A stretch of 64,000 nt of DNA from an uncultured Flavobacteriales bacterium (GCA_943846635.1 OX044359.1:529689-593688); one strand, 5' to 3'; numbered from the stretch's first letter, positions 1,716-49,268 are shown. Notes: generated by a model from the sequence alone, not told the origin. A program made the numbers and translations.

Positions 1716-4367
1716 TTAAACTTCATCAGATTCTGGAAGAATGGTTGTTTTCACTTCTAAAGTGCCCCAATCTAAATCTGATTCTTCTGCATATGCATCA
1801 AAATATGGCTCTTCAAACGACCTTGTTGTTAATCGCCTTTCTAGTGAAAGAAGTAACGTCGGTAAAATCACCAGGTTTGTAATCATTGCAACCAATAAGG
1901 TTAATGAAACTAGCATTCCTAAAGCCTGAGTTCCTCCAAACTGAGAAAATGAAAATGTTGAAAATCCACAAAAAAGAACAATAGAAGTATAAAACATCCC
2001 CAATCCTGCTTCACGAATTGCCATGATAACACATTCTTTCAAGTCCCACTGTTTCGTTTTTAGCTCTTGTCTGTATTTAGCAAGATAATGAATGGTGTCA
2101 TCCACAGATATTCCGAATGCAATACTAAATACCAATAATGTTGATGGTTTCAATGGGATTCCAAACCACCCCATAACTCCAGCTGTAAACAAAAGAGGGA
2201 TGAAATTTGGCACTAAAGAAACCAGTACCATTCTCCATGATCGAAACAAAATTGCCATTAGTATAGAAATCGCCAAAATGGCAAACAACAAACTAGTAAA
2301 GAGGTTTATCACCATGTACTTCGTACCATTAGATGCTACAATTGAAGTTCCTGTTAATGTTAAATCAAAATACTCATTATTGATTGCTTCCCTAACATTC
2401 TCAATAAAACCGGCCTTGCTATAGTATGATTTAATCAAATCTGGATCGGAATCTATCTCGAATTGAAGATCTTCATTGCCCGAGCTAAGAATTTTTGACA
2501 ATGAATTAAAAACCGCTGAGTTCTCATAAATAATTGTATCCAAATACTCAGTATTGTTTGAAGTCAAAAAAGAAGAATACAAAGCTTCTAATTTCGTTTT
2601 GTTGGGATTAAGGATTGAATCAATTTCAAGTTGCATGATATCCGCTTTATCCGAAATCTCATACGAACCAATATCTTTCATCTGCGACCGAACTCTAAGA
2701 ACATAGTTTGATGTATCAACCAATTCATTGATCGCAATCCCAGAACCTCCAGAATTAACCTCAATCGAATTGTCAAGGTACTTTTTAAGTTTACTTAAAT
2801 CTCTTGACCTTGTAACCAATCTAAATTTTGTAGAGTCATTATCATGATAAGCCATGTTCACAGCTTTCAAGAAATCTACATAAGAAATGAACTTTGCAAA
2901 TAAGGTGTCTTTTTCATAATGTTTTTGAATCGCTTCAATTTTACGGAGAGTCGTTGGTTTTGCTAATCGACTCTTTTCCTTATAATTGATCATAATTTCA
3001 AAAGGAATTGAACCTCCAAAATTATCTTGAATAAAATGAAAATCCTTAGAAATCTGATGGTCTTTCGGTAAATCTCCCGTTAAGTTTCCTGTTGCTTTAA
3101 TGCGCGTCATCCCAATGATACTCATCACCACCAAAGAAATTGTAGCAACATAAACCCATTTTCTATGGTTCAATGTAATTTCAACAAGGCTATTCAAAAG
3201 GCCGACCGCTAAATTTCTTTCTAAATGTTTTAAATGTTTCTTTTTCGGTTCTCCAGATAATGAAATAAAAATTGGAAGAACAGATATTGATATAACAAAA
3301 ACAAGAATGATATTGATCGCAGCGCATATACCGAACTGCATTAATTTAGGAGAATTCGTTGTAACAAAAGTCAAAAACCCAAGGGCAGTTGTTAGGTTCG
3401 TTAAGAATGTTGCTGTTCCAATTTTCTTGATCACACGTGTCAATGCTTTCACTTTATTTCCGTGTTCCAAAATTTCTTGGTGAAATTTGGTGATCAGAAA
3501 AATACAATTGGGTATGCCTATTACAATCATCAATGGCGGGATCAAAGCCATTATTATTGTGATATTGAAATTCAATGCGCCAATTGTTCCCATAGACCAT
3601 ATTACGGCTATACTGACAATTAACATGCATATAAAGACGACTCTGAGCGATCTAAAAAACAAATAAATGAGCAATGAAGTGATCACTATTAGTAGCCCAA
3701 TAAAGACATACATTTCTTTCAAAATTTGTTTTCCAATAACGACTCTTAAATGAGGAAGTCCAGCATATTTAGGGGCGCCAAAATAAGAACTATACGATTC
3801 TGCGACCGCTTCAACATCTAGGACTACTCTAGACTTTTTTTGATGCGAAATAAATTCTTCGTTAACAGAAATCATCATTAGTGAAATCTTCTCATCAGAA
3901 TTATAAAGCAAGCCTTCTAACAGAGGATTATTCTTAATTTCTCTCCTGATTGAGTCTATTGATTTGTCTTGAAATCGGGTGTCCGAAAAAACAGGATGAG
4001 CGTCAAATTTTTTCTCTTCCCGATTATTAGTAATACCGTATAAAGTAGCTTCAGAAATTACAGATTCGACACCGTCATATTGTAGAATTGAATCACCCAA
4101 TTCTTGCCATTTTAAAAAACGTTCTTCAGTATACAGAGAATCTGTTTGAATAGCAATAACGAGCGTTCCACCATCTTCACCAAACATAGATTTAAACCGA
4201 TCGTAATCAAGTTTAGCTTCTGCATTTTTAGGAAGAAGAATTCCATATTTATTGTCCAACTTTAAACCAGTTGCCGCATGATATGCAAAGAAAACAGTCA
4301 ACAGCGCGATTATTCCAATGATGGTAAACCTATTTCGTAAAATCAAATTCGCTAATGACTGCCACAT
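1716..4367 (-). CDS. MMPL/RND-superfamily exporter
   Basis: 883 aa with an N-terminal TM helix and two hydrophobic multi-helix blocks, each preceded by a large soluble domain. This is the architecture of the RND-superfamily exporters found beside aryl-polyene and flexirubin clusters. Confidence 0.75.
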   Translation of the reverse strand: MWQSLANLILRNRFTIIGIIALLTVFFAYHAATGLKLDNKYGILLPKNAEAKLDYDRFKSMFGEDGGTLVIAIQTDSLYTEERFLKWQELGDSILQYDGVESVISEATLYGITNNREEKKFDAHPVFSDTRFQDKSIDSIRREIKNNPLLEGLLYNSDEKISLMMISVNEEFISHQKKSRVVLDVEAVAESYSSYFGAPKYAGLPHLRVVIGKQILKEMYVFIGLLIVITSLLIYLFFRSLRVVFICMLIVSIAVIWSMGTIGALNFNITIIMALIPPLMIVIGIPNCIFLITKFHQEILEHGNKVKALTRVIKKIGTATFLTNLTTALGFLTFVTTNSPKLMQFGICAAINIILVFVISISVLPIFISLSGEPKKKHLKHLERNLAVGLLNSLVEITLNHRKWVYVATISLVVMSIIGMTRIKATGNLTGDLPKDHQISKDFHFIQDNFGGSIPFEIMINYKEKSRLAKPTTLRKIEAIQKHYEKDTLFAKFISYVDFLKAVNMAYHDNDSTKFRLVTRSRDLSKLKKYLDNSIEVNSGGSGIAINELVDTSNYVLRVRSQMKDIGSYEISDKADIMQLEIDSILNPNKTKLEALYSSFLTSNNTEYLDTIIYENSAVFNSLSKILSSGNEDLQFEIDSDPDLIKSYYSKAGFIENVREAINNEYFDLTLTGTSIVASNGTKYMVINLFTSLLFAILAISILMAILFRSWRMVLVSLVPNFIPLLFTAGVMGWFGIPLKPSTLLVFSIAFGISVDDTIHYLAKYRQELKTKQWDLKECVIMAIREAGLGMFYTSIVLFCGFSTFSFSQFGGTQALGMLVSLTLLVAMITNLVILPTLLLSLERRLTTRSFEEPYFDAYAEESDLDWGTLEVKTTILPESDEV

Positions 4368-4475: not shown

Positions 4476-4504
4476 CAAAAACAGAGTGTAACACGCTCTG
4501 TTTC
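4476..4504 (-). terminator. candidate rho-independent terminator downstream of the MFS gene
   Basis: 8-bp stem aaacagag / ctctgttt (4479-4486 and 4496-4503) with a 9-nt loop. It runs into a T-tract on the minus strand, about 55 nt after the stop at 4559. Confidence 0.45.
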
Positions 4505-4558: not shown

Positions 4559-5824
4559 CTATTCTGTAAAATCTAAATCTTTATTGTGTGTTTCTTCGAT
4601 AGTTACTGTAGAATAAAATGCAAGGGAGAAGACAATCAAACCTACTACTAGTGCCGCTGTAATTACACCATCACTAGACTGAGTGAAAAAATCTTCTTTA
4701 ATATAATTGTAAAGAATCACCATTAATGGCAGACTTCCACGCACCATATTTGGAATCGTAGTTGCTGCGGTAGCTCTTATATTTGTTCCAAACTGTTCTG
4801 CCCCCATTGTTGCAAACATTGCCCAATAACCTGTTCCTAATCCCAACCAAGCCATGAAAAAGTAATATCCATTGACTGTTTTAGCAAAACCTAACAACAA
4901 AAGAATGACCCCCAACAATGTAAATATTAACATCCAAAAAATTGCCTTCTTCCTTGAATTTAAAAGGTGACTAATAAATCCACTGGCAAAATCACCAGCT
5001 GAAATACCAATATATGCCCACATGATACAACTCCCAGGGTCTATTTCTCCATCTATACCCAACGGCACAGCAAACTGATTTCCAAAAAACGCAAAGATTC
5101 CAATACAAAACCATGTTGGCAGACCTATTGCAATGCATTTTATATACTTTATGAATCTCTCTTTATTTTGAAAAAAGGAAAGGAAATTTCCTTTTTTTAC
5201 TGAATCATCTTGCTTAATGTGATTGAACATTCCTGACTCAACAACTCCTAGTCGAAGCAATAATAAGGCTAAACCAAGCCCTCCTCCAATAAAATAAGTA
5301 ACTGTCCAATCTCCAGAAAAGCCTACCGTTAATTTTGCTACAACTGCTCCCAAAAGACCAAATCCAGCAACAAGAGAGGTTCCAATAGCACGTAATTCTT
5401 TGGGTAAAGACTCGGAAACCAATGTTATCCCGGCGCCTAATTCTCCTGCCAATCCAACTCCTGCAACGAATCTAAGAATGCAATAAAGCGTTGTTTGATC
5501 CATAAATGTGAGTTGAGGCATAAATCCACACGCTATATTTGCTAGAGAATAAACCAAAATTGATCCAAACAAAACCGTAAGCCTACCTTTTTTATCTCCA
5601 AGAACCCCCCATAGAATACCTCCTATTAGCAATCCAAACATTTGCCAATTCAAAATTAAGGACCCCACTTTCTCAGTATCCAATCCAAGTGCTTTTAGAC
5701 TTTCAACGCGAACGATACCGAAAAGTGTTAGATCATAAATATCAACGAAATAACCAAGTGCGGCAACAATTACGGGAAGGCTAAACAAGTATTTAAACTT
5801 TTGAGATATTGTGAATGAGTTCAT
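4559..5824 (-). CDS. MFS transporter
   Basis: 421 aa and about 12 hydrophobic helices. MFS loop 2-3 signature GDKKGRL. Confidence 0.85.
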   Translation of the reverse strand: MNSFTISQKFKYLFSLPVIVAALGYFVDIYDLTLFGIVRVESLKALGLDTEKVGSLILNWQMFGLLIGGILWGVLGDKKGRLTVLFGSILVYSLANIACGFMPQLTFMDQTTLYCILRFVAGVGLAGELGAGITLVSESLPKELRAIGTSLVAGFGLLGAVVAKLTVGFSGDWTVTYFIGGGLGLALLLLRLGVVESGMFNHIKQDDSVKKGNFLSFFQNKERFIKYIKCIAIGLPTWFCIGIFAFFGNQFAVPLGIDGEIDPGSCIMWAYIGISAGDFASGFISHLLNSRKKAIFWMLIFTLLGVILLLLGFAKTVNGYYFFMAWLGLGTGYWAMFATMGAEQFGTNIRATAATTIPNMVRGSLPLMVILYNYIKEDFFTQSSDGVITAALVVGLIVFSLAFYSTVTIEETHNKDLDFTE

Positions 5825-5866: not shown

Positions 5867-6913
5867 CTATTTTTTGATGAGTACCAGGCTGTTTTCATTG
5901 CGATTGTATTGATTAAAAATCAAGACAGTATCTATTTTTTTATTGGCATCTCGCAATGGCTCCCTATAAGGGCTCATCCCTTTCTGCAGCATTGTCGCAT
6001 ACCAAAAGCCCATAGAAATTACTGAAGGATGCTCCCCAAATAGCTCTTTAAATGTAAACACATTTGACTCTGGAATTAATGCATCCTTAGCATAGTCATA
6101 CATTTCCCTATTGGAAACATCACCATTATAACCCAACATTAAAGTGTCAATTTCTTTAGGTTCAATTTTATTCTCTGAAAGAAAACCGTTTATAAATTTC
6201 TTTATTTGATTAGGTTCGGCGGAAAGGAGTGTCGCAGCATCAATTATCTCTATGCCGTCTTCATTATTACTCAGACCAAAAAATGCTGCACCTTCCCCAC
6301 AAATTGTTCCTTTGGTATTACTAGAAATGAGGTCCAACGAATTTATCTTTTCAGTTTTATAATCTCCCCTTAGTTCGTTGATTCGATAGTTATAATCCGA
6401 TATTTCTTCAACAGACCCTAATAATATTTTTGCCTCCGGTTGATCATTAATAAAGAACCCAGCATCTCTCAAGCCATCTGCAAAAGAAAACGAACCATTC
6501 ACATGAGTCATATTATACGCTTGATTACTTGTTGCCATAGCTATATTACCTGCAATAGCATTTGGTGTAGACTGCACAAAATTCGTTGGGGTCAAAGCTC
6601 CCTCTCCAAAAAAAACAATCTGCTTTAAGAACTTGATACAATCCTCAAGTCCTCCATTTGATGTTGTCAAAATAATAGCGTCAGAATTTTCAAACTTAGG
6701 GTGCTTTTTAATTAGTTTCAATCCAGCCCCTGTGCCTATTCGAACTGCCTTACCCATTCTCCTCAATTGATTCATTGGAATATAATCACGCCAAGACGGT
6801 TCAATCACCTCCAATGAATTCGTACTGCAGTTCCTTAGCTCAATTTCCTTATTTTCAACATCATCAATATGAGTTTCTTGCGGCGACACAATATAAGATG
6901 CAACTACTTTCAT
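5867..6913 (-). CDS. beta-ketoacyl synthase-like protein without the catalytic Cys (chain-length-factor-like)
   Basis: Thiolase-fold-like sequence. The segment FVQSTPNAIAG sits where the neighbouring KS has TACSSSANAI. Its start overlaps the KS stop by 4 nt. Confidence 0.7.
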   Translation of the reverse strand: MKVVASYIVSPQETHIDDVENKEIELRNCSTNSLEVIEPSWRDYIPMNQLRRMGKAVRIGTGAGLKLIKKHPKFENSDAIILTTSNGGLEDCIKFLKQIVFFGEGALTPTNFVQSTPNAIAGNIAMATSNQAYNMTHVNGSFSFADGLRDAGFFINDQPEAKILLGSVEEISDYNYRINELRGDYKTEKINSLDLISSNTKGTICGEGAAFFGLSNNEDGIEIIDAATLLSAEPNQIKKFINGFLSENKIEPKEIDTLMLGYNGDVSNREMYDYAKDALIPESNVFTFKELFGEHPSVISMGFWYATMLQKGMSPYREPLRDANKKIDTVLIFNQYNRNENSLVLIKK

Positions 6914-8109
6914 TCTTTTTTAGCGATTATTAATGAAGTACAATTGCCATTAAATCCAAAAGAATTAGACAAAGCGTATTTAACATCTTTGCTTTCCAAT
7001 AAAACTTGATTCACTTGCAAGGATTTAACCTTAAGTGGCTTCTCAACATTCAGGCTAGGATATACTTGACCTTTGTTTAAACCGATCAATGAAAAAACAC
7101 ATTCTATTGCTCCTGCAGCTCCAAGTGTATGTCCCGTATATGATTTTGAAGAATAGATAGGAGTTCCAGGCTTGAATAATTTTGAAACCGCAGTTAATTC
7201 TGCCAAATCATTATTAACGGTTCCTGTTCCATGTGCATTAATGAACCCAATGTCATCTGTACTAATTTTCGCAATTTGTATGGCTTTATTAATACAATTC
7301 ATTATACCTGATCCATCTTCATTGAGCGCTGAACTATGGAATGAATCATTAGTATTTGCCCAACCAACAATAGAACCATATTTATTTTGAGAACGAGATT
7401 GAGTTGATTTCCTCAATACTAAATATGAGGCTGCCTCTCCTAGATTAAGTCCCTCTCGATTAATATCGAAGGGTTTGCATCGATTCTTGGTAAGAATTCC
7501 TAGCGCATCAAATCCACGAATTGTAAAGCGTGAGATACAATCTACCCCTCCAACGATGGCAATGTCAACTTTGTCCTGTTCCAACATCTTTGCCCCCAAC
7601 ATAATAGCATTCGCAGAGGAAGAACAAGCCGTGTTGATCACTGAAGTGGGGCCAGTCATATTATAATAATTCACAATTTTATGAAGATGAACACTTGCAG
7701 AATAAGAATTAATAAACTCACTTGGAATATCATTTGTTGTAGCATCTTCATATAACTCCATGGTCCTGCTCATTCCTCCCACGGTACTAGCAGAAATAAA
7801 AGCCGTTCTTGGGCTTTTAAGTTCACTTGCGGTCAGCCCAGCATCTCTTATGGCATCTTGAAACGCAACTTTCGATAAAGCATCAGTTCTTGTCGTTCCA
7901 GTAGGATCATAACCTTCGCATTGAGCAATCAACTCTTCATTTGTAAGGTCAATTTTACCCAGTGGAAACTGAATGGTTTTATCGTTTTGATTTTTTGCAG
8001 CTCGATTAATTATACCTGTTTTACCATTTTCTAATGCATGTATATTCTCAGCAATTGTATTACCTATAGCTGTTATGACACCAATTCCAGAAACAACAAT
8101 ACTATTCAC
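6910..8109 (-). CDS. beta-ketoacyl-ACP synthase (KAS I/II type)
   Basis: Cys-His-His triad motifs: NTACSSSANAI, NAHGTGT, YTGHTLGAAG. Confidence 0.9.
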   Translation of the reverse strand: MNSIVVSGIGVITAIGNTIAENIHALENGKTGIINRAAKNQNDKTIQFPLGKIDLTNEELIAQCEGYDPTGTTRTDALSKVAFQDAIRDAGLTASELKSPRTAFISASTVGGMSRTMELYEDATTNDIPSEFINSYSASVHLHKIVNYYNMTGPTSVINTACSSSANAIMLGAKMLEQDKVDIAIVGGVDCISRFTIRGFDALGILTKNRCKPFDINREGLNLGEAASYLVLRKSTQSRSQNKYGSIVGWANTNDSFHSSALNEDGSGIMNCINKAIQIAKISTDDIGFINAHGTGTVNNDLAELTAVSKLFKPGTPIYSSKSYTGHTLGAAGAIECVFSLIGLNKGQVYPSLNVEKPLKVKSLQVNQVLLESKDVKYALSNSFGFNGNCTSLIIAKKE

Positions 8110-8115
8110 CTCAGC

Positions 8116-8379
8116 TTATACTTTTCCCTTTTCGAGAATATAATCTGCCATATGATTTATGTCGACTAAAACTTTTCGACCTTCTGCAGGGTTTTCTATT
8201 TTAATACTGTATTCTCGCTCGAGCAATACAACTAATTCCAAAGAATCAATAGAGTCTAGACCTAATTCAGAACCAAAAAATTCAGTGTCATCGGCAAAAT
8301 CTTCAGGAGTAACATCCATAAGATTTAAATAACTTATAATTTGCTCTTTCAGTTGGATTTTTAATTCTTCTTTTGTCAT
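8116..8379 (-). CDS. acyl carrier protein
   Basis: 87 aa, acidic. Phosphopantetheine attachment motif LGLDSIDSLEL. Confidence 0.85.
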   Translation of the reverse strand: MTKEELKIQLKEQIISYLNLMDVTPEDFADDTEFFGSELGLDSIDSLELVVLLEREYSIKIENPAEGRKVLVDINHMADYILEKGKV

Positions 8380-9656
8380 TTTGATAAAATATTAAGTTTA
8401 CGAAGTTTAAGGTATACTAATAAAAAGAACACTACGTTCATCCCAATTAACACAAGCGATGGAGATATTAAATTAGCGAATGTGCCACCTTTTAAAAATA
8501 CTGAATAGAACAATTCAATACACCAATGAAGGGGAGAAATGTTGGATAAAAGCTTAAGTAAAGGAGGCATTACAAAACTCGGAACCCAAATGCCACCGAT
8601 AGCTGCAAAAATAACAACACTAATTGCTCCGAAACCAGTTGCTTGCTCAACTGTCTTACTATAAACCCCAATCAGCAGAGAATATGAAACTGCTGTAGCA
8701 CCAGTAAGTAAAATAATCCATCCGAAAATCAATAAATTATCTGGAAAATAAAGAGTTGGTAACCCAATAAACTGAAAAAGAAATCGACTAATTGTAAAAA
8801 TTAATATTACTTGAAAAAGAGAAACAATCCAAAATAAAATCGCTTTTGACCCTATTAAATACCATACACTACTTGGCATAGTCAAAACTCGATCAAAACT
8901 TCCATTCACTTTTTCTTTAACAAAGTTTCCTGCAAGAGAAACCACCATAAAAAATACAGCAAAAATAGACCACGCCGGAACATTATGCTGACTAGCATTA
9001 GGAAAAGAACTCTCTACCTTATCCACTGATGCTTTTTGCATCAACAAATTAGATTGCTCTAGCTGTTGGTCAATATTCAAAGAGCTTGGATCAATTTCAA
9101 GTAGTTCAGAAAGTTCACTAAGAAATAAATTCGTGCTAAGCTTTTTACTTAGTGTAAATACCATCTTCTCTATCGATTGTGCATAATTACTTTGAATAAT
9201 AGGACTGTAAATCAAAGTAAGCGTAATTTTATTATCAATGACATTCTTTTTTCCGCTAGATTCTTCTAACCCCATGGACTCAAGAATACTATTTGTCTTT
9301 ATTTGGTTTTCTTCAATAATTGTAGCTGAAAAATTTTCAGATATGTGCAATCCAAATGGTGTGTCAGATCCGTTGATAGCATTGTTAAGTTCATCTATAG
9401 AAAAATCTTCTTCAACAATATTAAAAAGCTGACTTTGCTTCAAAGAAGCTACATAATCTTTACTCAATGCTTGTTTATCCTGATTCGATAAAATCAATTC
9501 TATTTGATTATTATTAACCAAGTTTAATGCGCTATTTTGTATGGTTGTAATTATTACTACCAATAATATTGGTAAAAAAACCATCATGCCTAACCCCACC
9601 TTATCATTTAATAATAAGAGAAATTCTTTGGCTATACCTGCTTTTAATTTCCTCAT
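8376..9656 (-). CDS. ABC-2 type transporter permease
   Basis: N-terminal TM helix, a large extracytoplasmic loop, then a C-terminal cluster of about 5 TM helices. The start overlaps the stop of the upstream ATPase gene by 1 nt. Confidence 0.8.
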   Translation of the reverse strand: MRKLKAGIAKEFLLLLNDKVGLGMMVFLPILLVVIITTIQNSALNLVNNNQIELILSNQDKQALSKDYVASLKQSQLFNIVEEDFSIDELNNAINGSDTPFGLHISENFSATIIEENQIKTNSILESMGLEESSGKKNVIDNKITLTLIYSPIIQSNYAQSIEKMVFTLSKKLSTNLFLSELSELLEIDPSSLNIDQQLEQSNLLMQKASVDKVESSFPNASQHNVPAWSIFAVFFMVVSLAGNFVKEKVNGSFDRVLTMPSSVWYLIGSKAILFWIVSLFQVILIFTISRFLFQFIGLPTLYFPDNLLIFGWIILLTGATAVSYSLLIGVYSKTVEQATGFGAISVVIFAAIGGIWVPSFVMPPLLKLLSNISPLHWCIELFYSVFLKGGTFANLISPSLVLIGMNVVFFLLVYLKLRKLNILSK

Positions 9657-10378
9657 TATTGATCCAGTAAAATTGATTCTAGGTTTCTTTTATTCTGATG
9701 CAGCAACACTTCTTCTAAATTGCCTGTTATTATGTTCTTCCCATCATTTAAGAGTGTGAAATTTTCACAAAAACTCTGACTTTCATTCATTTGATGTGAA
9801 GTATAAATAATTGTCTTACCCATTTGATGAAGTTCATTCAAATAGTTTAAAATATCATTTTTACTATGCACATCTATACCAACAATAGGCTCGTCAAGAA
9901 TAATTATTTCGGGTTTATGGAGCAAGCCTAAAATCAAATTCACCTTTCTTTTCATGCCCCCAGAAAAGGAACTAATTTTTTTCTTCTGATCATTTTTTAA
10001 ACCAAAAACTGAAACTAAAGAATCGTACTGTTCTTGTATCTCTATATCCGTTAGATTAAACATGGTCCCAAAGTATTTTGCGTTTTGCAACAGCGTCAAC
10101 TCTTCATAAAATGCAAAATCTTGTGGGACATAGCCAATACTCTGTTTCACCTCCACTACGTCATTCAAAGAATCATCTTTTTTATTAAAAACAACCGTTC
10201 CCGAAGTAGGCGATATCACATTACAAATGATTTTTATTAAAGTTGATTTACCTGCACCATTGGAGCCAAAAATTCCATGCTTTGTTCCAGATTTAATTTT
10301 TAAAGAGAGCTCATTTATGCTTAAACGTTCAGCTCCTTTATAAGTATGAGATATGTTTTCAACGGAAATATTCATCAA
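9656..10378 (-). CDS. ABC transporter ATP-binding protein
   Basis: Walker A GSNGAGKST, signature FSGGMKRK, Walker B IIILDEP. Confidence 0.9.
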   Translation of the reverse strand: MMNISVENISHTYKGAERLSINELSLKIKSGTKHGIFGSNGAGKSTLIKIICNVISPTSGTVVFNKKDDSLNDVVEVKQSIGYVPQDFAFYEELTLLQNAKYFGTMFNLTDIEIQEQYDSLVSVFGLKNDQKKKISSFSGGMKRKVNLILGLLHKPEIIILDEPIVGIDVHSKNDILNYLNELHQMGKTIIYTSHQMNESQSFCENFTLLNDGKNIITGNLEEVLLHQNKRNLESILLDQ

Positions 10379-11382
10379 TCAAATTTTATAGACTTTAGTT
10401 TATTTAAGGCCATTAGTTCCTGTTGCTCTATTATGCGCATTCCCTCAGCAATATGATCAAAGTCTGATTGCTCGGTAGCTCGACCTTTTAGCGTTTGCGC
10501 CATGGTCATCGCAGAATTCCTCCACATATCACCTGCCTTCGTGAAATCATTCGATATTTCTAAAAGCTGGTCATTCATAATATACTTATAAGCTTCTTCT
10601 AAAAATGCTGCATAGATATATCTAAATCCACCTCCACCAGTACCAATTTCTTCTTGCATTCTAATTATTTGACCTAAATAAAGACTAGCTTTTCTTACGC
10701 CGAGTTGGTCTCTCCATTTAGAAACTCTATTTGCCGTGTATCCAATTCCAGAAACTCCAGCTGGTTTACCTGGTATTTTTAACATATCACGGCAATTCCT
10801 TTTGATTCCCGCTTTAATGGCTTTTGGAAAATCAAGATTAGTTGTCTTTACTAATTCAGGAGAATATAAATGTCCTTTAGGGGCAAGAACTCCTTTTGCA
10901 AACCTTACAATTCTCAGGTCTTCCTCGCTGATCAAAGTCGTTTCTTCCATTGTCGGATCACTAACCAAATATTCATTTCCTTGTTTGCCGTATATGATAA
11001 TATTATGTGCGTTGAAGTGAAACCTATATTCTTTTGGAAAATAAGGTAAATTGTAGACGCCTACTTGACATCCCGTTATTTTTCCTTGATCTAATTGTCT
11101 ATCCAAATATTCCATGGCCTTATCCTCAGAATTGAATTTCTTATGTGTAATGGGAATATCTAAAGCTTTACACGTTCTACTGAAAATAGCCCCGGGAAAG
11201 GTGCGAAATGAAATACTTGGCCCTCCATTGACTTTCATGAATGGAATATGAATATAAAAAAGACCTGAACCAATCCCAAAAGCCATTGGCTCTGAAACTC
11301 CTTCTATACCATTGTGGTGCAGAAGACTTGATGTCACACCATTTTCACAATGAGCACTTTGAATATGTTCAAACTCTTTCAA
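10375..11382 (-). CDS. BtrH N-terminal domain / DUF4872-like protein
   Basis: N-terminal HCENGVTSSLL motif and about 335 aa match my recollection of the BtrH-like family. The family call was not verified by HMM. Confidence 0.55.
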   Translation of the reverse strand: MKEFEHIQSAHCENGVTSSLLHHNGIEGVSEPMAFGIGSGLFYIHIPFMKVNGGPSISFRTFPGAIFSRTCKALDIPITHKKFNSEDKAMEYLDRQLDQGKITGCQVGVYNLPYFPKEYRFHFNAHNIIIYGKQGNEYLVSDPTMEETTLISEEDLRIVRFAKGVLAPKGHLYSPELVKTTNLDFPKAIKAGIKRNCRDMLKIPGKPAGVSGIGYTANRVSKWRDQLGVRKASLYLGQIIRMQEEIGTGGGGFRYIYAAFLEEAYKYIMNDQLLEISNDFTKAGDMWRNSAMTMAQTLKGRATEQSDFDHIAEGMRIIEQQELMALNKLKSIKFD

Positions 11383-11777
11383 ATTTTTATTTCTTTAAGA
11401 TCTTGAATACTTATTTTAAATAAGTCTGCATAAACTTTTAACTTATTATCTTTCAATTTGTTAAAAACAGCAGGTTTCATATGTCTATTGATAGTGAATT
11501 TCCAATAACCTGAATACTGCGCTAGTAAAGAAGTGTCCATAAGGTTATTCAGCATATGAAAATACAAAGGGCTTTTTACTCCTTTATTAAACGCAATGAT
11601 TGCTTTTTCTTTCTGAATCTCAATATCGTCCCAGGCTGCATCAAGGGCATCTTTTTTTACATCCCAACCTTTACTCAATACCGTCTCATAATTCCCATCA
11701 GAATTTTTTGCATAACAAACCTCTTTTGTGAAGTTTTTCAAAGCACTTTCGTCCTGTGGTATTTCGTTGGTTTTCAT
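11379..11777 (-). CDS. hypothetical protein (132 aa) inside the biosynthetic operon
   Basis: Overlaps the downstream BtrH-like gene by 4 nt and starts 3 nt after the upstream darB stop. No recognisable motif. Confidence 0.6.
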   Translation of the reverse strand: MKTNEIPQDESALKNFTKEVCYAKNSDGNYETVLSKGWDVKKDALDAAWDDIEIQKEKAIIAFNKGVKSPLYFHMLNNLMDTSLLAQYSGYWKFTINRHMKPAVFNKLKDNKLKVYADLFKISIQDLKEIKI

Positions 11778-11780
11778 ATG

Positions 11781-12938
11781 TTAAACAACTGTTAATAAGC
11801 AAAAAACGTACGAAAATCTTGAGCTCTCTGGAACAGCTAACAATATAGTTTCACCTTTCGATAACTTGTCTGATTTAAACAATTCATCTACCATGAGGTA
11901 AATAGAGCCTGAACCAACATTGCCTTTGGTTGCTAAATTAGTAAACCACTTTTCATTAGGAATAATTATGTTATTACTTCTAAGTACCTCATCTATTTTA
12001 TCTTCAAAAAAATAGCTAGAAAGATGTGGGAGAAAATGATCCACAGTTGATGGGTCATAATTGTGCTTTTTACAAATGTCCGCGAGTTTATCGAAGCCTA
12101 ATCGTACAATTTTTTCACCCAAAACTTTGGTGTCTTGTTTTATGCTAAAAATCGACTTTTTAATGAGGTCTTCTTGGCTATAATCTTTATAACTCAATAA
12201 TTTCCCATGCTCATCAAAATCTGACCCCATATACATGCATACAGGCTGTTCGTCAGCATAAGAGATTGCTTCCATCCACTCTATTCGCAATGAATGTGAA
12301 TCTTTATTCGGGGTATTATTCAGTAAAAAAGCCCCAGCACCATCAGAAAGCATCCATCTCAGAAAGTCTTTTTCAAATGCCAAAATTGGTTTCTCTTCTA
12401 CCTTCGTGATTGCTTCCAATTCTTCTTGGTAGTTTTCGCTTCTTAAAGTCTTCGCAAGTCTTTCTGAACCAGTTGAAATTGCTGTCTTTTTATCTCCTGT
12501 TTTAATAGACAAGAAACTATATTTTAACGCATGCATCCCAGAGCAACAAACTCCAGAAGGTGATACCACCTCGATTGAGCCTAATTCTGGCAACTCTCCA
12601 TGCACCATAACACCATGACTTGGCATTAGTTGATCGGGACTAGAAGTGCCACAAGCAAGTAGCTCAATAGGATCAATATTATTCTCTAGAAGTTTCCGAA
12701 TAGCAAGACTCACCATCTCGGCATTTGAATGCGTAGAATTACCATCTTTGTCAATAGCGTAATAGCGTTCTTTTATTTTGTTATTCCTAAGAATTAAGTT
12801 TTTAGTTCTTGAAACAGTTCCATTAATAAACCCCATATACTCTTCAATAACATCATTCGTTATTGCCGTATTTGGTAAGAACGAACTTGTATTAATGATA
12901 TAAACCTCTTCCATCTCGTCTTTCTTACTTTGCATCAA
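11781..12938 (-). CDS. darB: beta-ketoacyl-ACP synthase III-like condensing enzyme (DarB-type)
   Basis: KAS III Cys-His-Asn motifs: GVCCSGMHALKY, DHFLPHLSS, TKGNVGSGSIY. Overlaps the DarA-like gene by 14 nt. Confidence 0.75.
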   Translation of the reverse strand: MMQSKKDEMEEVYIINTSSFLPNTAITNDVIEEYMGFINGTVSRTKNLILRNNKIKERYYAIDKDGNSTHSNAEMVSLAIRKLLENNIDPIELLACGTSSPDQLMPSHGVMVHGELPELGSIEVVSPSGVCCSGMHALKYSFLSIKTGDKKTAISTGSERLAKTLRSENYQEELEAITKVEEKPILAFEKDFLRWMLSDGAGAFLLNNTPNKDSHSLRIEWMEAISYADEQPVCMYMGSDFDEHGKLLSYKDYSQEDLIKKSIFSIKQDTKVLGEKIVRLGFDKLADICKKHNYDPSTVDHFLPHLSSYFFEDKIDEVLRSNNIIIPNEKWFTNLATKGNVGSGSIYLMVDELFKSDKLSKGETILLAVPESSRFSYVFCLLTVV

Positions 12939-13833
12939 TTAGCAAAATTAATCTTTTTTCTTGTCTTTCTGTCTTTAAAACAAATGGTCTTACAAGTATT
13001 GCGTATAAGGTTAAGATGATTGGGGAAACAATAAACAATGCAAATATTAGATAAAACCTAAAAAAGAGCAACCAGCTTTTCCTTTTTTGTGGAGTTGTTC
13101 CTTTTTTAACAATGATGTTTGCCCAAATTTTAAATAATCTCTTCGCCTTTTTTTCAATAAAAATAATTGTCCAATGAAGATCAATCTTACCCAAAGATAG
13201 AATAGAATCTTGCAAGTTTTGTTCACCATTTTCAAAGTGATTTTTTATCACCTCACCAAACTCACCCGCCTCTCCAATGTCTTTATCAGAAATTCCTGGT
13301 TTCGGAAATATTCCCCATTTTTTTTCTTTTGTCCCTTTGAACATCCAATGCATTATGCTTACTGCACTTAATAAATTAGGTTTTCGATCAATTAAAGGAA
13401 TATTACCGATGTGGATTGCACCCAGCTCTTCTATTCGAGAAGAAACTTCTTTATGAGCATTAATCCACATATTTCTTGCACCAACAACAGTAATTACCGG
13501 TGTATTTTTTATTATGCTCTGAAACTTTGCATCATTCAAAATTCCATGAGTTGGAATACTGGGACTTAAAAACCATGGTTGATAACCAAAAATGACCAAA
13601 TCATATTTATCGTATTTTAAGTTAAAAGTTTCTATTGCACAACCTTTACTCAATACGCAATCAGGCATGGCTTCAAAGAAGTTAGATTTACTCCAAGGAA
13701 ACGGAAAATTCGGATCTGGATAAAACCGAACGTGATCTATTGTATGATCAGTGTTTAAAAAAGGTCGTGCAAAATTTTTTAAAACCTCGGTAAGCTGACC
13801 CGTTTGAGAATAATGAATAACAAGAATTCTCAT
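12925..13833 (-). CDS. darA: dialkylresorcinol condensing/aromatising enzyme DarA-like (flavodoxin-like fold)
   Basis: The N-terminus MRILVIHYSQTGQL, FPFPW, YQPWFLSPS and RNMW motifs match the DarA family as I recall it. C-terminal TM segment. Adjacent to the KAS III gene. Confidence 0.7.
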   Translation of the reverse strand: MRILVIHYSQTGQLTEVLKNFARPFLNTDHTIDHVRFYPDPNFPFPWSKSNFFEAMPDCVLSKGCAIETFNLKYDKYDLVIFGYQPWFLSPSIPTHGILNDAKFQSIIKNTPVITVVGARNMWINAHKEVSSRIEELGAIHIGNIPLIDRKPNLLSAVSIMHWMFKGTKEKKWGIFPKPGISDKDIGEAGEFGEVIKNHFENGEQNLQDSILSLGKIDLHWTIIFIEKKAKRLFKIWANIIVKKGTTPQKRKSWLLFFRFYLIFALFIVSPIILTLYAILVRPFVLKTERQEKRLILLIDAK

Positions 13834-14297
13834 AGGTTAATTTTATATTCTGGCTGATCAATATTAAAATCCTGAATAATCTTATATAGTGACTTCCTAA
13901 TCGTTTTATTTTGTGATTCTAAAAAATATTTGTCCTTATCTATTTTATCCTTATACCTAGTTATTTTTGGCGAATTACATTGGATTACATATCTTAAAAA
14001 AATCAATTCGACGTTTTTTGAGTCCAATGCTATCGCTTTTTCAATGTTACCTGCTCCTGCTTTAAACTCTTGAACTTTTTCCTTTGGGGTAGTTAAATAG
14101 GATGACTTTTTCGCCTTTAAAGCTCCAACATAGCATAATGCCAAATTCGATTTTTTTATTTTGCCTTCCAATAAATTTATTTTATTTGTTAATTGGACAG
14201 CCGTTCCTTCTTTAAGTAAAGAATATATTTCCGCATCCATTTGAGCGATGGAAAACAGCGCGTATAATTGAAAAAGAAATAGGAGATGAAATTTCAT
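13830..14297 (-). CDS. hypothetical secreted protein (155 aa)
   Basis: Signal-peptide-like N-terminus MKFHLLFLFQLYALFSIAQ. Overlaps both neighbouring genes. Confidence 0.6.
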   Translation of the reverse strand: MKFHLLFLFQLYALFSIAQMDAEIYSLLKEGTAVQLTNKINLLEGKIKKSNLALCYVGALKAKKSSYLTTPKEKVQEFKAGAGNIEKAIALDSKNVELIFLRYVIQCNSPKITRYKDKIDKDKYFLESQNKTIRKSLYKIIQDFNIDQPEYKINL

Positions 14298-15346
14298 TAA
14301 ACTAGACTACATTCAAGGATTGTATGATAACTGTCACCAATTAAAGGATATTCTTTGTCAACTTTGAAACCGGCATTTTTCAATATATATTCAAACGATG
14401 ATTTTGAATACATTTTACTATTGCCGTTTGCTATTGCTGTAAAATAAAGAGAAGTTGCCACCAAACTGAATTTAGCTGCTGGATAGTCCTGATTATCAAT
14501 AAAAGTCTCCATTATAAACACTTTTGATTCTTTCTTAGCATTTTTCTTTATTTTGAGTAAAATACTCTCGATTTCACTTTCACTAAAGCAATCCAAAAAT
14601 TGACTCATCCAATATACATCAGCTCCTCCTGGAATTTCTGTTTCAGGCTTTAAAATATCAATAGGATGATACGAAATTCTATCTTTAAATGTTGTCGTAT
14701 TCTCAATGTTCTTTTTCGCTAACTCAACCTGTCCGGGCAAATCAACAATTTTAACTTCAACATCCGAACTATTATTACACGACGCAATAGCCCACTTCCC
14801 AGTGTTTCCACCAATGTCAAATATTAAATTAGGATTATTATTAAATATAATTTTCAAAGCATCATCAAATGCGTCATCACTATAATAGTGATCAAACTCC
14901 AACCATGATTTTCTTAATTCTGGACTCAACTGAGACAAACCTTCGTAAATTGTTTTCCAAGGACCATACTCTTTAAGTCCTTCTGCTTTTCCGTTTTTTA
15001 TAGAATCAGTAAGATTAAACAATCCTTTATAACAGTTATCATTTGTAAAACGCAGATTAACATTAGTCATCATATCGGAATGCAGATAAAAACCAATCTT
15101 CGTTAAATCAATTTGACCTTCTTCATTTAATGTTAACACCTCAGCAGCAACTGCCATTTCCACCAGAACAAGCACGCCATAATCAGAAACCCCAGTATCT
15201 TGGGATAAACTTGCAAGTGTTGCTTTCCCTCTAGCTTTTCGAATAGCTGCCATTATTCCCAAATCTTTCATCGCTATGCAAGTTTGGAAAACAAAAGGTC
15301 CAAATGCAATTTTTTGTGCTTCGTATTTTGCTTCTAACGCTTTCAT
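14297..15346 (-). CDS. SAM-dependent O-methyltransferase
   Basis: SAM-binding motif I, LIFDIGGNTGKW, preceded by a helical dimerisation-like N-terminal domain. 349 aa. Confidence 0.85.
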   Translation of the reverse strand: MKALEAKYEAQKIAFGPFVFQTCIAMKDLGIMAAIRKARGKATLASLSQDTGVSDYGVLVLVEMAVAAEVLTLNEEGQIDLTKIGFYLHSDMMTNVNLRFTNDNCYKGLFNLTDSIKNGKAEGLKEYGPWKTIYEGLSQLSPELRKSWLEFDHYYSDDAFDDALKIIFNNNPNLIFDIGGNTGKWAIASCNNSSDVEVKIVDLPGQVELAKKNIENTTTFKDRISYHPIDILKPETEIPGGADVYWMSQFLDCFSESEIESILLKIKKNAKKESKVFIMETFIDNQDYPAAKFSLVATSLYFTAIANGNSKMYSKSSFEYILKNAGFKVDKEYPLIGDSYHTILECSLV

Positions 15347-15412: not shown

Positions 15413-15420
15413 CAAAAATA
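15413..15420 (-). promoter_or_regulatory. candidate Bacteroidota -7 box (TATTTTTG) for the biosynthetic operon
   Basis: Matches the TAnnTTTG consensus on the minus strand, 67 nt upstream of the methyltransferase start. No clear -33 TTG. Confidence 0.3.
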
Positions 15421-17408: not shown

Positions 17409-18263
17409 ATGAAAATACATCCATTAAATACCGGAAATTTTAAATTAGATGGGGGCGCTATGTTTGGTGTGGTTCCAAAATCACTGTGGCAAAGAACTAA
17501 TCCAGCAGACAACAACAATTTGTGTGATTGGTCTATGCGCACAATGTTAATTGAAGATGGAAATAAGCTTATTTTAGTGGACACTGGTATTGGTGATAAG
17601 CAATCAGAAAAATTTTTCTCTCATTATCACCTTTCTGATGAAAACAGCCTCGTTCCTAATTTAAATAAGCTAGGGTACGGATTGGATGAAGTCACAGATG
17701 TGTTTTTAACTCATTTACATTTTGACCATTGTGGAGGTGCTGTTAAATGGAACAAAGATCGAACTGGACTCGACACGGTTTTTAAAAACGCACATTATTG
17801 GAGTACAGATAATCATTGGAAATGGGCAACGGAGCCAAACGCTCGGGAAAAAGCATCTTTCCTCAAGGAAAACATTATGCCTATTCAAGAAAGTGGACAA
17901 CTTAAATTTATTGAAAGAAATGGCGACTATACAAAAAATGCTTTTAATAATTTCGATGTGTTATTTGTAGATGGCCATACAGAAAGCATGATGATTCCTC
18001 ATGTTAAATATAAAGGAAAAACTATTGTCTTTATGGCTGATTTACTGCCCAGTATCGGCCATATACCATTGCCTTACGTGATGGGTTATGACACAAGACC
18101 TTTGCTTACCTTAAGTGAAAAAGAGAAGTTCTTAAAAATTGCGGCAAAAGAAGAATTTATTCTATTTTTAGAGCATGACTTTCACAACGAATGCTGTACA
18201 CTGCAAGAAACAGATAGAGGTGTTAGAGTAAAGGAAACATTTTCTTTTAACGAGTTATTTTAA
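17409..18263 (+). CDS. MBL-fold metallo-hydrolase
   Basis: HxHxDH motif LTHLHFDHCGG. Confidence 0.8.
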   Translation: MKIHPLNTGNFKLDGGAMFGVVPKSLWQRTNPADNNNLCDWSMRTMLIEDGNKLILVDTGIGDKQSEKFFSHYHLSDENSLVPNLNKLGYGLDEVTDVFLTHLHFDHCGGAVKWNKDRTGLDTVFKNAHYWSTDNHWKWATEPNAREKASFLKENIMPIQESGQLKFIERNGDYTKNAFNNFDVLFVDGHTESMMIPHVKYKGKTIVFMADLLPSIGHIPLPYVMGYDTRPLLTLSEKEKFLKIAAKEEFILFLEHDFHNECCTLQETDRGVRVKETFSFNELF

Positions 18264-49243: not shown

Positions 49244-49268
49244 ACTTCTTTAAATTCATTTAGTTCAT

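What the first reader, a model, noticed from the sequence alone, without database searches (positions are those of the whole stretch)
5867..15346. Compact 11-gene DarA/DarB (dialkylresorcinol-type) biosynthetic operon without the polyene half of flexirubin clusters
All 11 minus-strand genes are joined by overlaps or by gaps of 6 nt or less, so this looks like one transcription unit. In order they are: O-methyltransferase, secreted 155-aa unknown, DarA-like, DarB-like KAS III, 132-aa unknown, BtrH-like, ABC ATPase, ABC-2 permease, ACP, KS and CLF-like KS. DarA and DarB are the established enzymes that build 2,5-dialkylresorcinols and cyclohexanediones. Those products form the lipid half of flexirubin pigments in Bacteroidota and act as signalling molecules in Photorhabdus. 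Classical flexirubin clusters also encode a tyrosine ammonia-lyase, an aryl-CoA ligase, KR/DH/thioesterase enzymes, LolA-like proteins and acyltransferases. None of these is in the window. The operon is bounded by ribD on one side and by transporters plus a housekeeping prenyl synthase on the other. It may therefore make a free, O-methylated dialkylresorcinol-type lipid that is actively exported, rather than a pigment.
Basis: partly seen in the sequence, partly recalled or inferred. Interest (0 to 1): 0.7.

Follow-up and report, generated by a model that had tools for sequence, protein, structure and literature searches.

The report
Stand-alone dialkylresorcinol (dar) gene module
This is a real 11-gene operon for making a dialkylresorcinol lipid, but it is the same conserved "dar" module already described in Chitinophaga and Azoarcus, where the matching pigment genes sit elsewhere in the genome, so it is a fairly ordinary new example of a known kind.

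Summary
Eleven minus-strand ORFs (5867-15346) are joined by overlaps or gaps of 6 nt or less. No flexirubin polyene gene lies in the 64-kb window or in the 9.3 kb left of base 1.

The architecture is not new. The gene order matches the published Chitinophaga pinensis dar cluster Cpin_6852-6843 gene for gene. That genome keeps its polyene cluster about 5,000 genes away. The window differs by one extra 155-aa gene and a different methyltransferase family. Azoarcus BH72 carries the same module, and Reichenbachiella has separate resorcinol and arylpolyene clusters.

- **Family placement:** DarB, DarG and DarH pass curated NCBIfam cut-offs. DarA has no HMM but is supported by homology, synteny and a flavodoxin-like fold.
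- **Close relatives:** In relatives with 56-60% identical DarA, the same block is flanked by flexirubin genes.
- **Metagenomes:** 7 of 25 fully flanked DarA loci have no flexirubin gene nearby.
- **Methyltransferase:** It is FlxJ-like, so O-methylation is not shown.

Whether this ~2.9-Mb marine Flavobacteriales genome has polyene genes elsewhere could not be settled. Indirect searches found none, but they were weak. Verdict: new member of a known kind, with low to moderate interest.

The parts
15413..15420 (-). Possible Bacteroidota-type -7 promoter box (TATTTTTG) in the 161-nt divergent intergenic region shared with ribD
   Evidence: Sequence read. The TAnnTTTG motif is not enriched in the window (82 found against 88.9 expected), so this is only consistent with a promoter, not evidence for one.
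14297..15346 (-). FlxJ-like SAM-dependent methyltransferase (position of darF in C. pinensis, but a different MTase family)
   Evidence: PF00891 plus PF21212. NF053543 FlxJ_fam 430.6 bits, below the cut-off of 560. It is 49-72% identical to MTases inside flexirubin clusters L008, L012, L013 and L017. Best solved relative is 3dp7, E 5.7e-91.
13830..14297 (-). 155-aa protein with an N-terminal hydrophobic helix and a TPR-like all-helical fold; a conserved, unnamed companion of DarA
   Evidence: No Pfam or NCBIfam hit. 1034 representative clusters at E<=1e-3. AF2 model with pLDDT 94.2 and seven helices. Only weak TPR/14-3-3-like fold matches, E>0.1. A homologue lies directly upstream of DarA in 54 of 68 metagenomic loci.
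12925..13833 (-). DarA (aromatase that turns the carboxy-cyclohexanedione into the resorcinol); flavodoxin-like domain plus a C-terminal hydrophobic helix
   Evidence: No HMM hit in Pfam or NCBIfam. 2597 homologues; 49-53% identical to proteins that UniRef names DarA in Fluviicola and Reichenbachiella. It sits next to DarB in all the named reference loci (L007, L008, L009, L012, L020) and in most metagenomic loci long enough to show it; three loci lack DarB. It is 30.7% identical to the DarA-position gene of a minimal darA-KASIII-ACP cluster on a B. pseudomallei plasmid. AF2 pLDDT 88.1; the N-terminal domain matches flavodoxins and WrbA at E 1e-5 to 1e-4.
11781..12935 (-). DarB (StlD/DarB-type ketosynthase that joins two fatty-acyl thioesters head to head)
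   Evidence: NF053539 577.7 bits against a cut-off of 550, and NF005293 550.7 against 450. Full-length match to StlD 5gk0, E 5e-102, with C, H and N aligned in the SGxC, PHxSS and KGN motifs.
11379..11777 (-). DarG (small protein of unknown role, specific to pigment-type dar modules)
   Evidence: NF053536 DarG_fam 168 bits against a cut-off of 70. The flexirubin_DarG equivalog scores 159.3 against 170, just below. No solved relative.
10375..11382 (-). DarH (BtrH-related acyltransferase)
   Evidence: NF053550 450.1 bits against a cut-off of 300. BtrH_N plus DUF4872. N-terminal HCENG cysteine present.
9656..10375 (-). DarI-position ABC transporter ATPase
   Evidence: PF00005, 112.5 bits. Same position as darI in C. 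pinensis. 40-66% identical in L007, L008, L009, L012, L017 and L021.
8376..9656 (-). DarJ-position ABC-2 permease
   Evidence: PF12698 and PF01061. Same position as darJ.
8116..8379 (-). DarC-position acyl carrier protein
   Evidence: PF00550. GLDSID serine motif present. 83% identical in L012.
6910..8109 (-). DarD-position ketosynthase (KAS I/II type, active-site motifs intact)
   Evidence: PF00109 plus PF02801. TACSSS, HGTGT and GHTLGAAG motifs present.
5867..6913 (-). DarE-position CLF-like partner of the KS (no active-site cysteine motif)
   Evidence: PF13723 Ketoacyl-synt_2. Only a marginal FabF match. The sequence lacks the C/H/H motifs.
4559..5824 (-). MFS transporter, probably a 12th cistron of the same transcript; specific to this lineage
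   Evidence: 42-nt gap after the CLF-like gene with no hairpin. Present in the 80% relative but not next to dar blocks in other lineages.
4478..4504 (-). Terminator-like hairpin followed by a U-run, downstream of the MFS gene
   Evidence: Sequence. Fold -11.7 kcal/mol, z -2.58 against shuffles. Not picked up by the consensus scan.
1716..4367 (-). MMPL/HAE3-type RND transporter; a neighbour and probably a separate transcription unit. Membership of the system is not shown
   Evidence: TIGR00921 220.6 bits, below the cut-off of 351.9. 191-nt gap containing the hairpin above. Conserved in the 80% relative only.

Best explanation
The region is a stand-alone copy of the conserved 'dar module' known from Chitinophaga pinensis (darF-A-B-G-H-I-J-C-D-E) and Azoarcus BH72. 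It builds a 2,5-dialkylresorcinol (DAR) lipid at the cytoplasmic membrane.

**Steps taken from characterised homologues**
- DarB condenses a beta-ketoacyl thioester with an alpha,beta-unsaturated acyl thioester into a carboxy-cyclohexanedione, by a Michael addition and a Claisen condensation.
- DarA, a flavodoxin-like protein with a C-terminal hydrophobic helix, oxidises and decarboxylates that product to the resorcinol.

**Steps inferred here**
- The KS/CLF-like pair and the dedicated ACP carry out one non-reduced elongation. This supplies the beta-ketoacyl-ACP partner for DarB; the operon has no KR or DH.
- DarH, a BtrH-type acyltransferase, moves an ACP-bound acyl group onto the resorcinol hydroxyl.
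- The FlxJ-like methyltransferase methylates a phenolic ring.
- The ABC-2 transporter, and in this lineage the MFS protein, move the product outward.
- The TPR-like 155-aa protein and DarG act as accessory or scaffold proteins.

**Fate of the DAR**
- (a) As in C. pinensis, it is esterified to an aryl-polyene made by genes elsewhere in the ~2.9-Mb genome, giving a flexirubin-type pigment. Probability about 0.5.
- (b) The genome lacks those genes and the DAR, or a DarH-acylated DAR, is itself the end product. Probability about 0.4.
For: **Family calls.** DarB, DarG and DarH pass curated cut-offs. DarB aligns over its full length with StlD, with the catalytic residues conserved. DarA is supported by homology, synteny and fold.

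**Gene order.** It is identical to the published C. pinensis cluster and equivalent to the Azoarcus cluster.

**Conservation of the block**
- The 11-gene block is colinear at 57-83% identity in L012, apart from the fast-evolving 155-aa gene (37%), and at 34-62% in L007, where the contig ends inside the ABC-2 permease gene.
- Nine of its genes are colinear in Fluviicola taffensis.
- All ORFs are intact in an 80% relative and in eight contigs that are 99.8-99.98% identical.

**Mechanism of DarB and DarA.** Taken from the review PMC6836626.

**For fate (a)**
- In the nearest relatives, the same block is flanked by FlxW, FlxY, FlxV, FlxK and FlxU homologues.
- Orthologues of the MTase lie inside the polyene parts of clusters L008, L013 and L017.
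- C. pinensis and Reichenbachiella ABC2-5 type split layouts are documented: C. pinensis and Reichenbachiella ABR2-5.
- Free-DAR clusters are the minimal darABC type without DarG, DarH, KS, CLF or ABC genes.
Against: - No experiment exists for this organism.
- DarA has no curated HMM.
- The roles given to DarC/D/E, DarG, DarH, the MTase, the 155-aa protein and the transporters are inferences. In E. coli, darA and darB alone sufficed for DAR production.

**Against fate (a)**
- 73 kb of sequence holds no polyene gene.
- None of 240 FlxW-like or FlxY-like cluster representatives lies on the 2,915,770-bp contig that carries this DarA. The same is true of the members of 29 such clusters that I inspected.
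- Kumagai et al. 2018 report that the darA and darB orthologue groups showed no bias between proteorhodopsin-positive and -negative marine Flavobacteriia genomes. The aryl-polyene genes were exclusive to the negative ones. This implies some genomes have darA/darB without aryl-polyene genes.
Confidence: 0.8

Rival explanations
1. The organism has no polyene pathway, and the operon makes a free, O-methylated dialkylresorcinol-type lipid that is actively exported as a non-pigment end product, for example a signal, antioxidant or membrane lipid.
For: - No polyene gene lies from -9.3 kb to +64 kb.
- The same bare context is kept in an 80% relative.
- A lineage-specific MFS gene appears to be co-transcribed.
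- No FlxW or FlxY homologue could be traced to the 2,915,770-bp contig.
- The darA/darB orthologue groups are not biased against genomes that lack aryl-polyene genes.
- Decorated, exported DARs without a polyene exist in cyanobacteria.
Against: - The same stand-alone module in C. pinensis serves flexirubin.
- The module carries DarG, DarH, KS, CLF and ABC genes, which the minimal free-DAR darABC cluster examined here lacks.
- The MTase is FlxJ-like and its orthologues sit among polyene genes. O-methylation, as opposed to C-methylation, is untested.
- The absence test is weak. Only the best 120 of about 8000 hits were listed, and orthologues from other orders are already at 51-54% identity.
Confidence: 0.4
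2. The operon is self-contained. The KS/CLF-like pair and ACP build their own short polyketide or polyene chain using housekeeping KR and DH enzymes. DarH then esterifies that chain to the DAR, giving a small hybrid lipid without the classical flx genes.
For: - KS/CLF pairs of the same Pfam types drive polyene elongation in the adjacent flexirubin genes of relatives. A second KS/CLF pair, 31-39% identical, lies in L009 and L017.
- DarH is an ACP-dependent acyltransferase type.
- The operon has its own ACP.
Against: - The operon has no starter-unit enzymes (TAL or ligase), KR, DH or thioesterase.
- The DarC/D/E trio is present in full clusters in addition to the polyene KS/CLF pair, so it is not a substitute for that pair.
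Confidence: 0.07
3. The block is a decaying remnant of a flexirubin cluster that lost its polyene half and no longer has a function.
For: Close relatives have flx genes immediately on both sides of the same block. A loss or rearrangement event is therefore plausible.
Against: - All 11 ORFs are intact, with translational-coupling overlaps.
- Catalytic motifs are kept.
- The same intact set, with near-identical lengths, is present in relatives whose DarA is 80% identical and in many environmental strains.
Confidence: 0.03

Closest known systems
Chitinophaga pinensis DSM 2588 DAR gene cluster, Cpin_6843-6852 (darE, D, C, J, I, H, G, B, A, F; Schoener et al. 2014, PMC3992019)
   Same: The ten gene functions are in the same order: MTase, DarA, DarB, DarG, DarH, ABC ATPase, ABC permease, ACP, KS and CLF-like KS. 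It also stands alone, away from the polyene genes. darA plus darB from this cluster were shown to make a DAR.
   Different: The window has an extra 155-aa TPR-like gene between the MTase and darA. Its MTase is FlxJ-like (PF00891) rather than the 'type 11' DarF. It also has an MFS gene appended. No sequence of the C. pinensis proteins was available here for direct alignment, so the comparison rests on the published table.
Azoarcus sp. BH72 dar cluster, azo0283-0293 (arcuflavin pathway; PMC3949708)
   Same: It holds DarA, DarB, a conserved hypothetical protein in the DarG position, a BtrH-like protein, ABC ATPase and permease, ACP, KS and a hypothetical protein. It is separate from the aryl-polyene (arc) genes.
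   Different: It is from a betaproteobacterium. A toxin-antitoxin pair is inserted, and no MTase or 155-aa gene is listed. The polyene cluster lies only about 20 genes away.
Contiguous flexirubin clusters: Flavobacterium johnsoniae Fjoh_1075-1110, Fluviicola taffensis (L009), a Vicingus contig (L017), L101
   Same: They contain the same DarA to CLF block. Fluviicola shares 41-59% identity over nine colinear genes.
   Different: In those clusters the block is fused to TAL, ligase, KS/CLF, ApeP, ApeI, thioesterase, LolA, deacetylase, GT2-DUF2062 and FlxU genes. None of these is present in 73 kb here.
Minimal free-DAR clusters: Pseudomonas aurantiaca darABC, Photorhabdus stlCDE, and a B. pseudomallei plasmid darA-KASIII-ACP cluster (NZ_CP009155)
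   Same: They share the DarA/DarB/ACP core chemistry.
   Different: They have three genes only, with no DarG, DarH, KS/CLF, ABC transporter or MTase. The window operon is not of this architecture.

Membership tests
DarB/StlD ketosynthase family | Scores above the curated cut-off of the NCBIfam DarB model | tested here: met
   NF053539 577.7 bits against 550; NF005293 550.7 against 450.
DarB/StlD ketosynthase family | KAS III-type Cys-His-Asn catalytic residues in register with a solved member | tested here: met
   Full-length alignment to StlD 5gk0 (E 5e-102) with C, H and N conserved in the SGxC, PHxSS and KGN motifs. The identity of these as the catalytic residues is from general knowledge of KAS III enzymes.
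DarA aromatase family | Match to a curated family model | tested here: inconclusive
   No Pfam-A or NCBIfam model matched at E<=1. L007's orthologue also matched none. The libraries appear to hold no DarA model.
DarA aromatase family | Homology to proteins called DarA, and a conserved position directly upstream of DarB | tested here: met
   49-53% identity to UniRef-named DarA of Fluviicola and Reichenbachiella. Adjacent to DarB in L007, L008, L009, L012, L020 and most of the 80 metagenomic loci. 30.7% identity to the darA-position gene of a minimal Burkholderia cluster.
DarA aromatase family | Redox-capable fold consistent with oxidative aromatisation | tested here: met
   AF2 model with pLDDT 88.1. 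The N-terminal domain matches flavodoxin, WrbA and FMN proteins. Cofactor binding itself was not tested.
Pigment-type dar module (C. pinensis darA-J) | Presence of DarG and DarH | tested here: met
   NF053536 168 bits against 70; NF053550 450.1 against 300.
Pigment-type dar module (C. pinensis darA-J) | Gene content and order MTase-A-B-G-H-I-J-C-D-E | tested here: met
   Window order compared with Table S4 of PMC3992019. One extra gene (the 155-aa protein) and a different MTase family.
Complete flexirubin biosynthetic gene cluster | Tyrosine ammonia-lyase FlxA and aryl-CoA ligase FlxY | tested here: not met
   None found from -9.3 kb to +64 kb. For comparison, L008's FlxA scores 891 bits against 700.
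Complete flexirubin biosynthetic gene cluster | Polyene elongation and export set (ApeP/ApeI dehydratases, thioesterase, LolA, deacetylase, GT2-DUF2062, FlxU) | tested here: not met
   Absent from the window and its left flank. Present next to the block in L009, L017, L020 and L101.
Flexirubin-type pigment producer (organism level) | Polyene genes anywhere in the genome, or a KOH colour shift | not testable with these tools
   The genome is known only as a 2,915,770-bp contig length. Indirect FlxW and FlxY searches found no link.
FlxJ family methyltransferase (NF053543) | Score above the curated cut-off | tested here: not met
   430.6 bits against 560. L007's orthologue scores 433.8. It is a FlxJ-like sister group, not a called member.
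Minimal free-DAR darABC cluster | Three-gene darA-darB-ACP unit without pigment-module genes | tested here: not met
   The window operon carries eight further genes. Contrast with the Burkholderia plasmid locus.

The most novel reading that the evidence does not exclude
This abundant, uncultured marine Flavobacteriales lineage has a genome of about 2.9 Mb. It may have kept the whole pigment-type dar module (with DarG, DarH, KS/CLF and ABC genes) while lacking any aryl-polyene pathway. The module would then make a different end product, such as a methylated DAR or a DAR that DarH acylates with a fatty acyl group, exported by the ABC and MFS transporters. That would give the 'pigment' module a second, polyene-independent role.
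Probability: 0.4. Interest if true: 0.45.

Novelty: new member of a known kind. Interest (0 to 1): 0.25.

Why it matters
If the genome does hold polyene genes elsewhere, this is one more split flexirubin cluster and matters little.

If it does not, it would be a concrete, sequence-defined case of the 'dar without aryl-polyene' genotype. Kumagai et al. 2018 noted that pattern only as a distribution, and here it would sit in an environmentally abundant lineage. It would give a handle on what DarG, DarH, DarC/D/E and the ABC exporter do independently of the pigment.

A by-product of this work is that the 155-aa TPR-like protein is a widespread, unnamed member of dar modules. It lies directly upstream of DarA in 54 of 68 loci.

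Tried and rejected
- **Exact look-up of the longest DarB ORF** failed, because the TTG start is not the called start.
- **Consensus sigma-70 promoter and terminator scans** were at chance level. The Bacteroidota -7 motif is not enriched in the window.
- **The genome-contig scan with DarA** returned only two relatives and not the source genome.
- **Linking polyene genes to the source genome:**
  - I searched with FlxW and FlxY of the closest flx-bearing relative, L012.
  - Candidate contigs came from other samples, belonged to other organisms, or could not be linked to the source genome.
  - The 57% FlxW group is a single species. One of its members has the same longest-contig length as DarA hit P0087, which suggests it belongs to that organism.
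  - Contig-length fingerprinting of 29 candidate FlxW/FlxY clusters found none on the 2,915,770-bp contig.
  - This is suggestive, but only the top 120 hits of each search were visible.
- **Calibrating the expected FlxW/FlxY identity from DarA identity** proved unreliable. Other DarA lineages that are equally distant from L012 also have no hit at 60-70%.
- **Tetranucleotide composition** did not discriminate between organisms.
- **The supplements of PMC5932025** do not hold the darA/darB distribution table.
- **DarA, DarG and DarH** have no solved sequence relatives.
- **The MMPL transporter as an FlxU-type exporter:** rejected as unsupported. It is a plain two-MMPL-domain protein of 883 aa without an acyltransferase or MTase domain, and it is not conserved next to dar blocks outside this lineage.

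Full report
**Observation**

I used the start codons that independent gene callers chose on identical metagenome contigs. With those starts, the junctions in nt are -1, -4, -11, +3, -4, -1, -1, -4, +6 and -4. This is a translationally coupled operon. A further MFS gene follows after 42 nt with no hairpin. A terminator-like hairpin lies after that gene (4478-4504, -11.7 kcal/mol, z -2.6). The MMPL transporter and the prenyl synthase come next, after a 191-nt gap. Generic promoter and terminator scans were uninformative.

**What the genes are**

- **DarB (11781-12935).** It passes the curated NCBIfam cut-off (577.7 bits against 550). It aligns end to end with the solved Photorhabdus enzyme StlD (E 5e-102), with the Cys, His and Asn positions conserved.
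- **The 132-aa 'unknown'.** This is DarG (168 bits against 70).
- **The BtrH-like protein.** This is DarH (450 bits against 300).
- **The methyltransferase.** It has the PF00891 fold. Its nearest curated family is FlxJ, the methyltransferase of the C. pinensis polyene cluster, but it scores below the cut-off (430.6 against 560).
- **The KS and its partner.** The KS keeps the C/H/H motifs and the CLF-like partner (PF13723) lacks them. The ACP has its serine motif.
- **DarA (12925-13833).** Other evidence supports the assignment:
  - It has 2597 homologues and is 49-53% identical to proteins that UniRef names DarA.
  - It sits directly upstream of DarB in every named reference locus and in most metagenomic loci; three loci lack DarB.
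  - It is 30.7% identical to the darA-position gene of a minimal darA-KASIII-ACP cluster on a Burkholderia plasmid.
  - Its AlphaFold model (pLDDT 88) has a flavodoxin/WrbA-like N-terminal domain and long C-terminal helices, one of them hydrophobic in sequence. That suits an oxidative aromatase.
- **The 155-aa protein.** It has an N-terminal hydrophobic helix and a confident TPR-like helical fold (pLDDT 94), with no significant solved match. It belongs to a family of more than 1000 representative clusters.

**Surroundings**

Pfam/NCBIfam scans of the remaining ORFs found no ammonia-lyase, aryl-CoA ligase, KR, DH, thioesterase, LolA, deacetylase or lipid acyltransferase. Precomputed calls for 19-24 kb found none either. 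The only other KS is FabF. A contig 99.9% identical to the window extends 9.3 kb left of base 1 and also holds none. The statement 'no polyene half in cis' therefore holds over 73 kb.

**Comparison with what is known**

Table S4 of Schoener et al. 2014 lists the C. pinensis DAR cluster in this order:

| Locus tag | Gene | Product |
|---|---|---|
| Cpin_6843 | darE | CLF-like |
| Cpin_6844 | darD | KS |
| Cpin_6845 | darC | ACP |
| Cpin_6846 | darJ | ABC permease |
| Cpin_6847 | darI | ABC ATPase |
| Cpin_6848 | darH | BtrH-like |
| Cpin_6849 | darG | small protein |
| Cpin_6850 | darB | ketosynthase |
| Cpin_6851 | darA | aromatase |
| Cpin_6852 | darF | methyltransferase |

Read in the direction of transcription, this is the window's order gene for gene. 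The window adds the 155-aa gene and uses a different methyltransferase family. C. pinensis makes normal flexirubin, and its polyene cluster (Cpin_1853-1877) lies elsewhere.

Azoarcus BH72 has the same module beside, but separate from, its aryl-polyene genes. Reichenbachiella ABR2-5 has separate 'Resorcinol' and 'Arylpolyene' regions. The clusters known to give free DARs are the three-gene darABC type. The architecture is therefore the published pigment-type dar module in its published stand-alone layout.

**Relatives**

- The source organism is an uncultured marine Flavobacteriales. Its exact DarA occurs on 14 contigs, the longest of 2,915,770 bp. A cluster-mate is labelled 'MAG: Flavobacteriales bacterium'.
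- Eight metagenome contigs are 99.8-99.98% identical to the window. An 80% relative has the same bare context and intact genes.
- In the nearest lineages that carry flx genes, the same block is embedded in flexirubin genes.
  - L012 (DarA 60% identical; block genes 57-83% apart from the 155-aa gene at 37%) has FlxW-like and FlxY-like genes upstream, and FlxV-like and halogenase genes downstream.
  - L007 (DarA 56%) has an acyltransferase, an FlxV-like gene and a halogenase upstream.
- Fluviicola, a Vicingus contig and L101 have fully contiguous clusters.
- In a survey of 80 JGI metagenome loci, 7 of the 25 with at least 9 kb on both sides had no flx marker. One of these is L021, a close relative with DarB 71% identical. 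Stand-alone blocks are therefore common.
- The 155-aa homologue lies directly upstream of DarA in 54 of 68 loci. The methyltransferase does so in 11 of 55.

**Is there a polyene half elsewhere?**

This could not be settled. I searched with FlxW and FlxY from L012. The candidates that I followed up came from other samples or other organisms, or could not be linked to the source genome. None of the 240 representatives lies on a 2,915,770-bp contig. Nor do the members of the 29 candidate clusters that I inspected.

This counts weakly against FlxW and FlxY being in the genome. However, only the best 120 of about 8000 hits were visible in each search, and cross-order orthologues are already at 51-54% identity.

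Kumagai et al. 2018 report that the darA and darB orthologue groups showed no bias between proteorhodopsin-positive and -negative marine Flavobacteriia. The aryl-polyene genes were exclusive to the negative genomes. Some genomes therefore appear to carry darA/darB without aryl-polyene genes. Against that, all characterised stand-alone modules of this full architecture feed a pigment. I put the split-cluster reading at about 0.5 and the dar-only reading at about 0.4.

**Mechanism**

Established for homologues:
- DarB joins a beta-ketoacyl and a 2-enoyl thioester to a carboxy-cyclohexanedione.
- DarA aromatises that product with decarboxylation.

Inferred here:
- The KS/CLF-like pair and the ACP supply the beta-ketoacyl-ACP by one non-reduced elongation.
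- DarH transfers an ACP-bound acyl group to the resorcinol.
- The FlxJ-like enzyme methylates a phenolic ring. Whether this is C- or O-methylation is unknown. Its weaker solved relatives include SibL and the BchU/CrtF-related methyltransferase, which I recall to be C-methyltransferases.
- The ABC-2 transporter and the MFS protein export the product.

**Verdict**

The layout is already described, so this is a new member of a known kind with modest interest. The open and testable question is whether this lineage is truly dar-only.

Noticed in passing
window 13830-14297 (-); L021-L100: The 155-aa TPR-like protein is not in the published dar gene lists. A homologue lies directly upstream of DarA in 54 of 68 metagenomic loci, and the family has more than 1000 representative clusters. 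It looks like a conserved, unnamed member of dar modules.
   Followed up: partly
L065, L069, L087 (about 9530-12400 in each): Three metagenomic loci have 155-aa homologue, DarA, DarG and DarH in a row. No DarB, ABC, ACP, KS or CLF gene is detectable within 10 kb on either side. This is a DarB-less variant of the module.
   Followed up: partly
window 40219-42557 (-): A GH3-family protein resembles the lyso-ornithine lipid synthetase OlsH (397 bits, below the cut-off of 620). It overlaps by 4 nt an uncharacterised 271-aa ORF just downstream. This may be a variant aminolipid pathway.
   Followed up: no
window 17409-18263 (+): An MBL-fold protein most similar to YtnP-type quorum-quenching lactonases (178 bits, below the cut-off of 425). 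It lies two genes from the dar operon, in the divergent ribD-EamA unit, and is conserved there in relatives.
   Followed up: no
window 28894-31369 (-): A 609-aa fusion of a GNAT acetyltransferase domain with a class-III aminotransferase, followed by a 219-aa protein with a PF13500 (AAA_26) domain. This is an unusual domain combination.
   Followed up: no
window 47894-50612 (-): Two tandem paralogous HisKA_2 histidine kinases (449 and 447 aa). The region has the lowest GC of the window (0.308 for 48-50 kb).
   Followed up: no
L004 19467-20909 (equivalent to window about 2926-4367): In one 99.9% identical metagenome contig, the MMPL gene is called as two pieces (423 aa plus a following fragment). 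This is either a frameshift variant or an assembly error.
   Followed up: no
L013 3260-4324: In a marine FlxW-FlxY-MTase-halogenase locus, the FlxJ-like methyltransferase is split into a 66-aa piece and a 280-aa piece. The orthologous contig of P0125 has an intact 354-aa gene.
   Followed up: no
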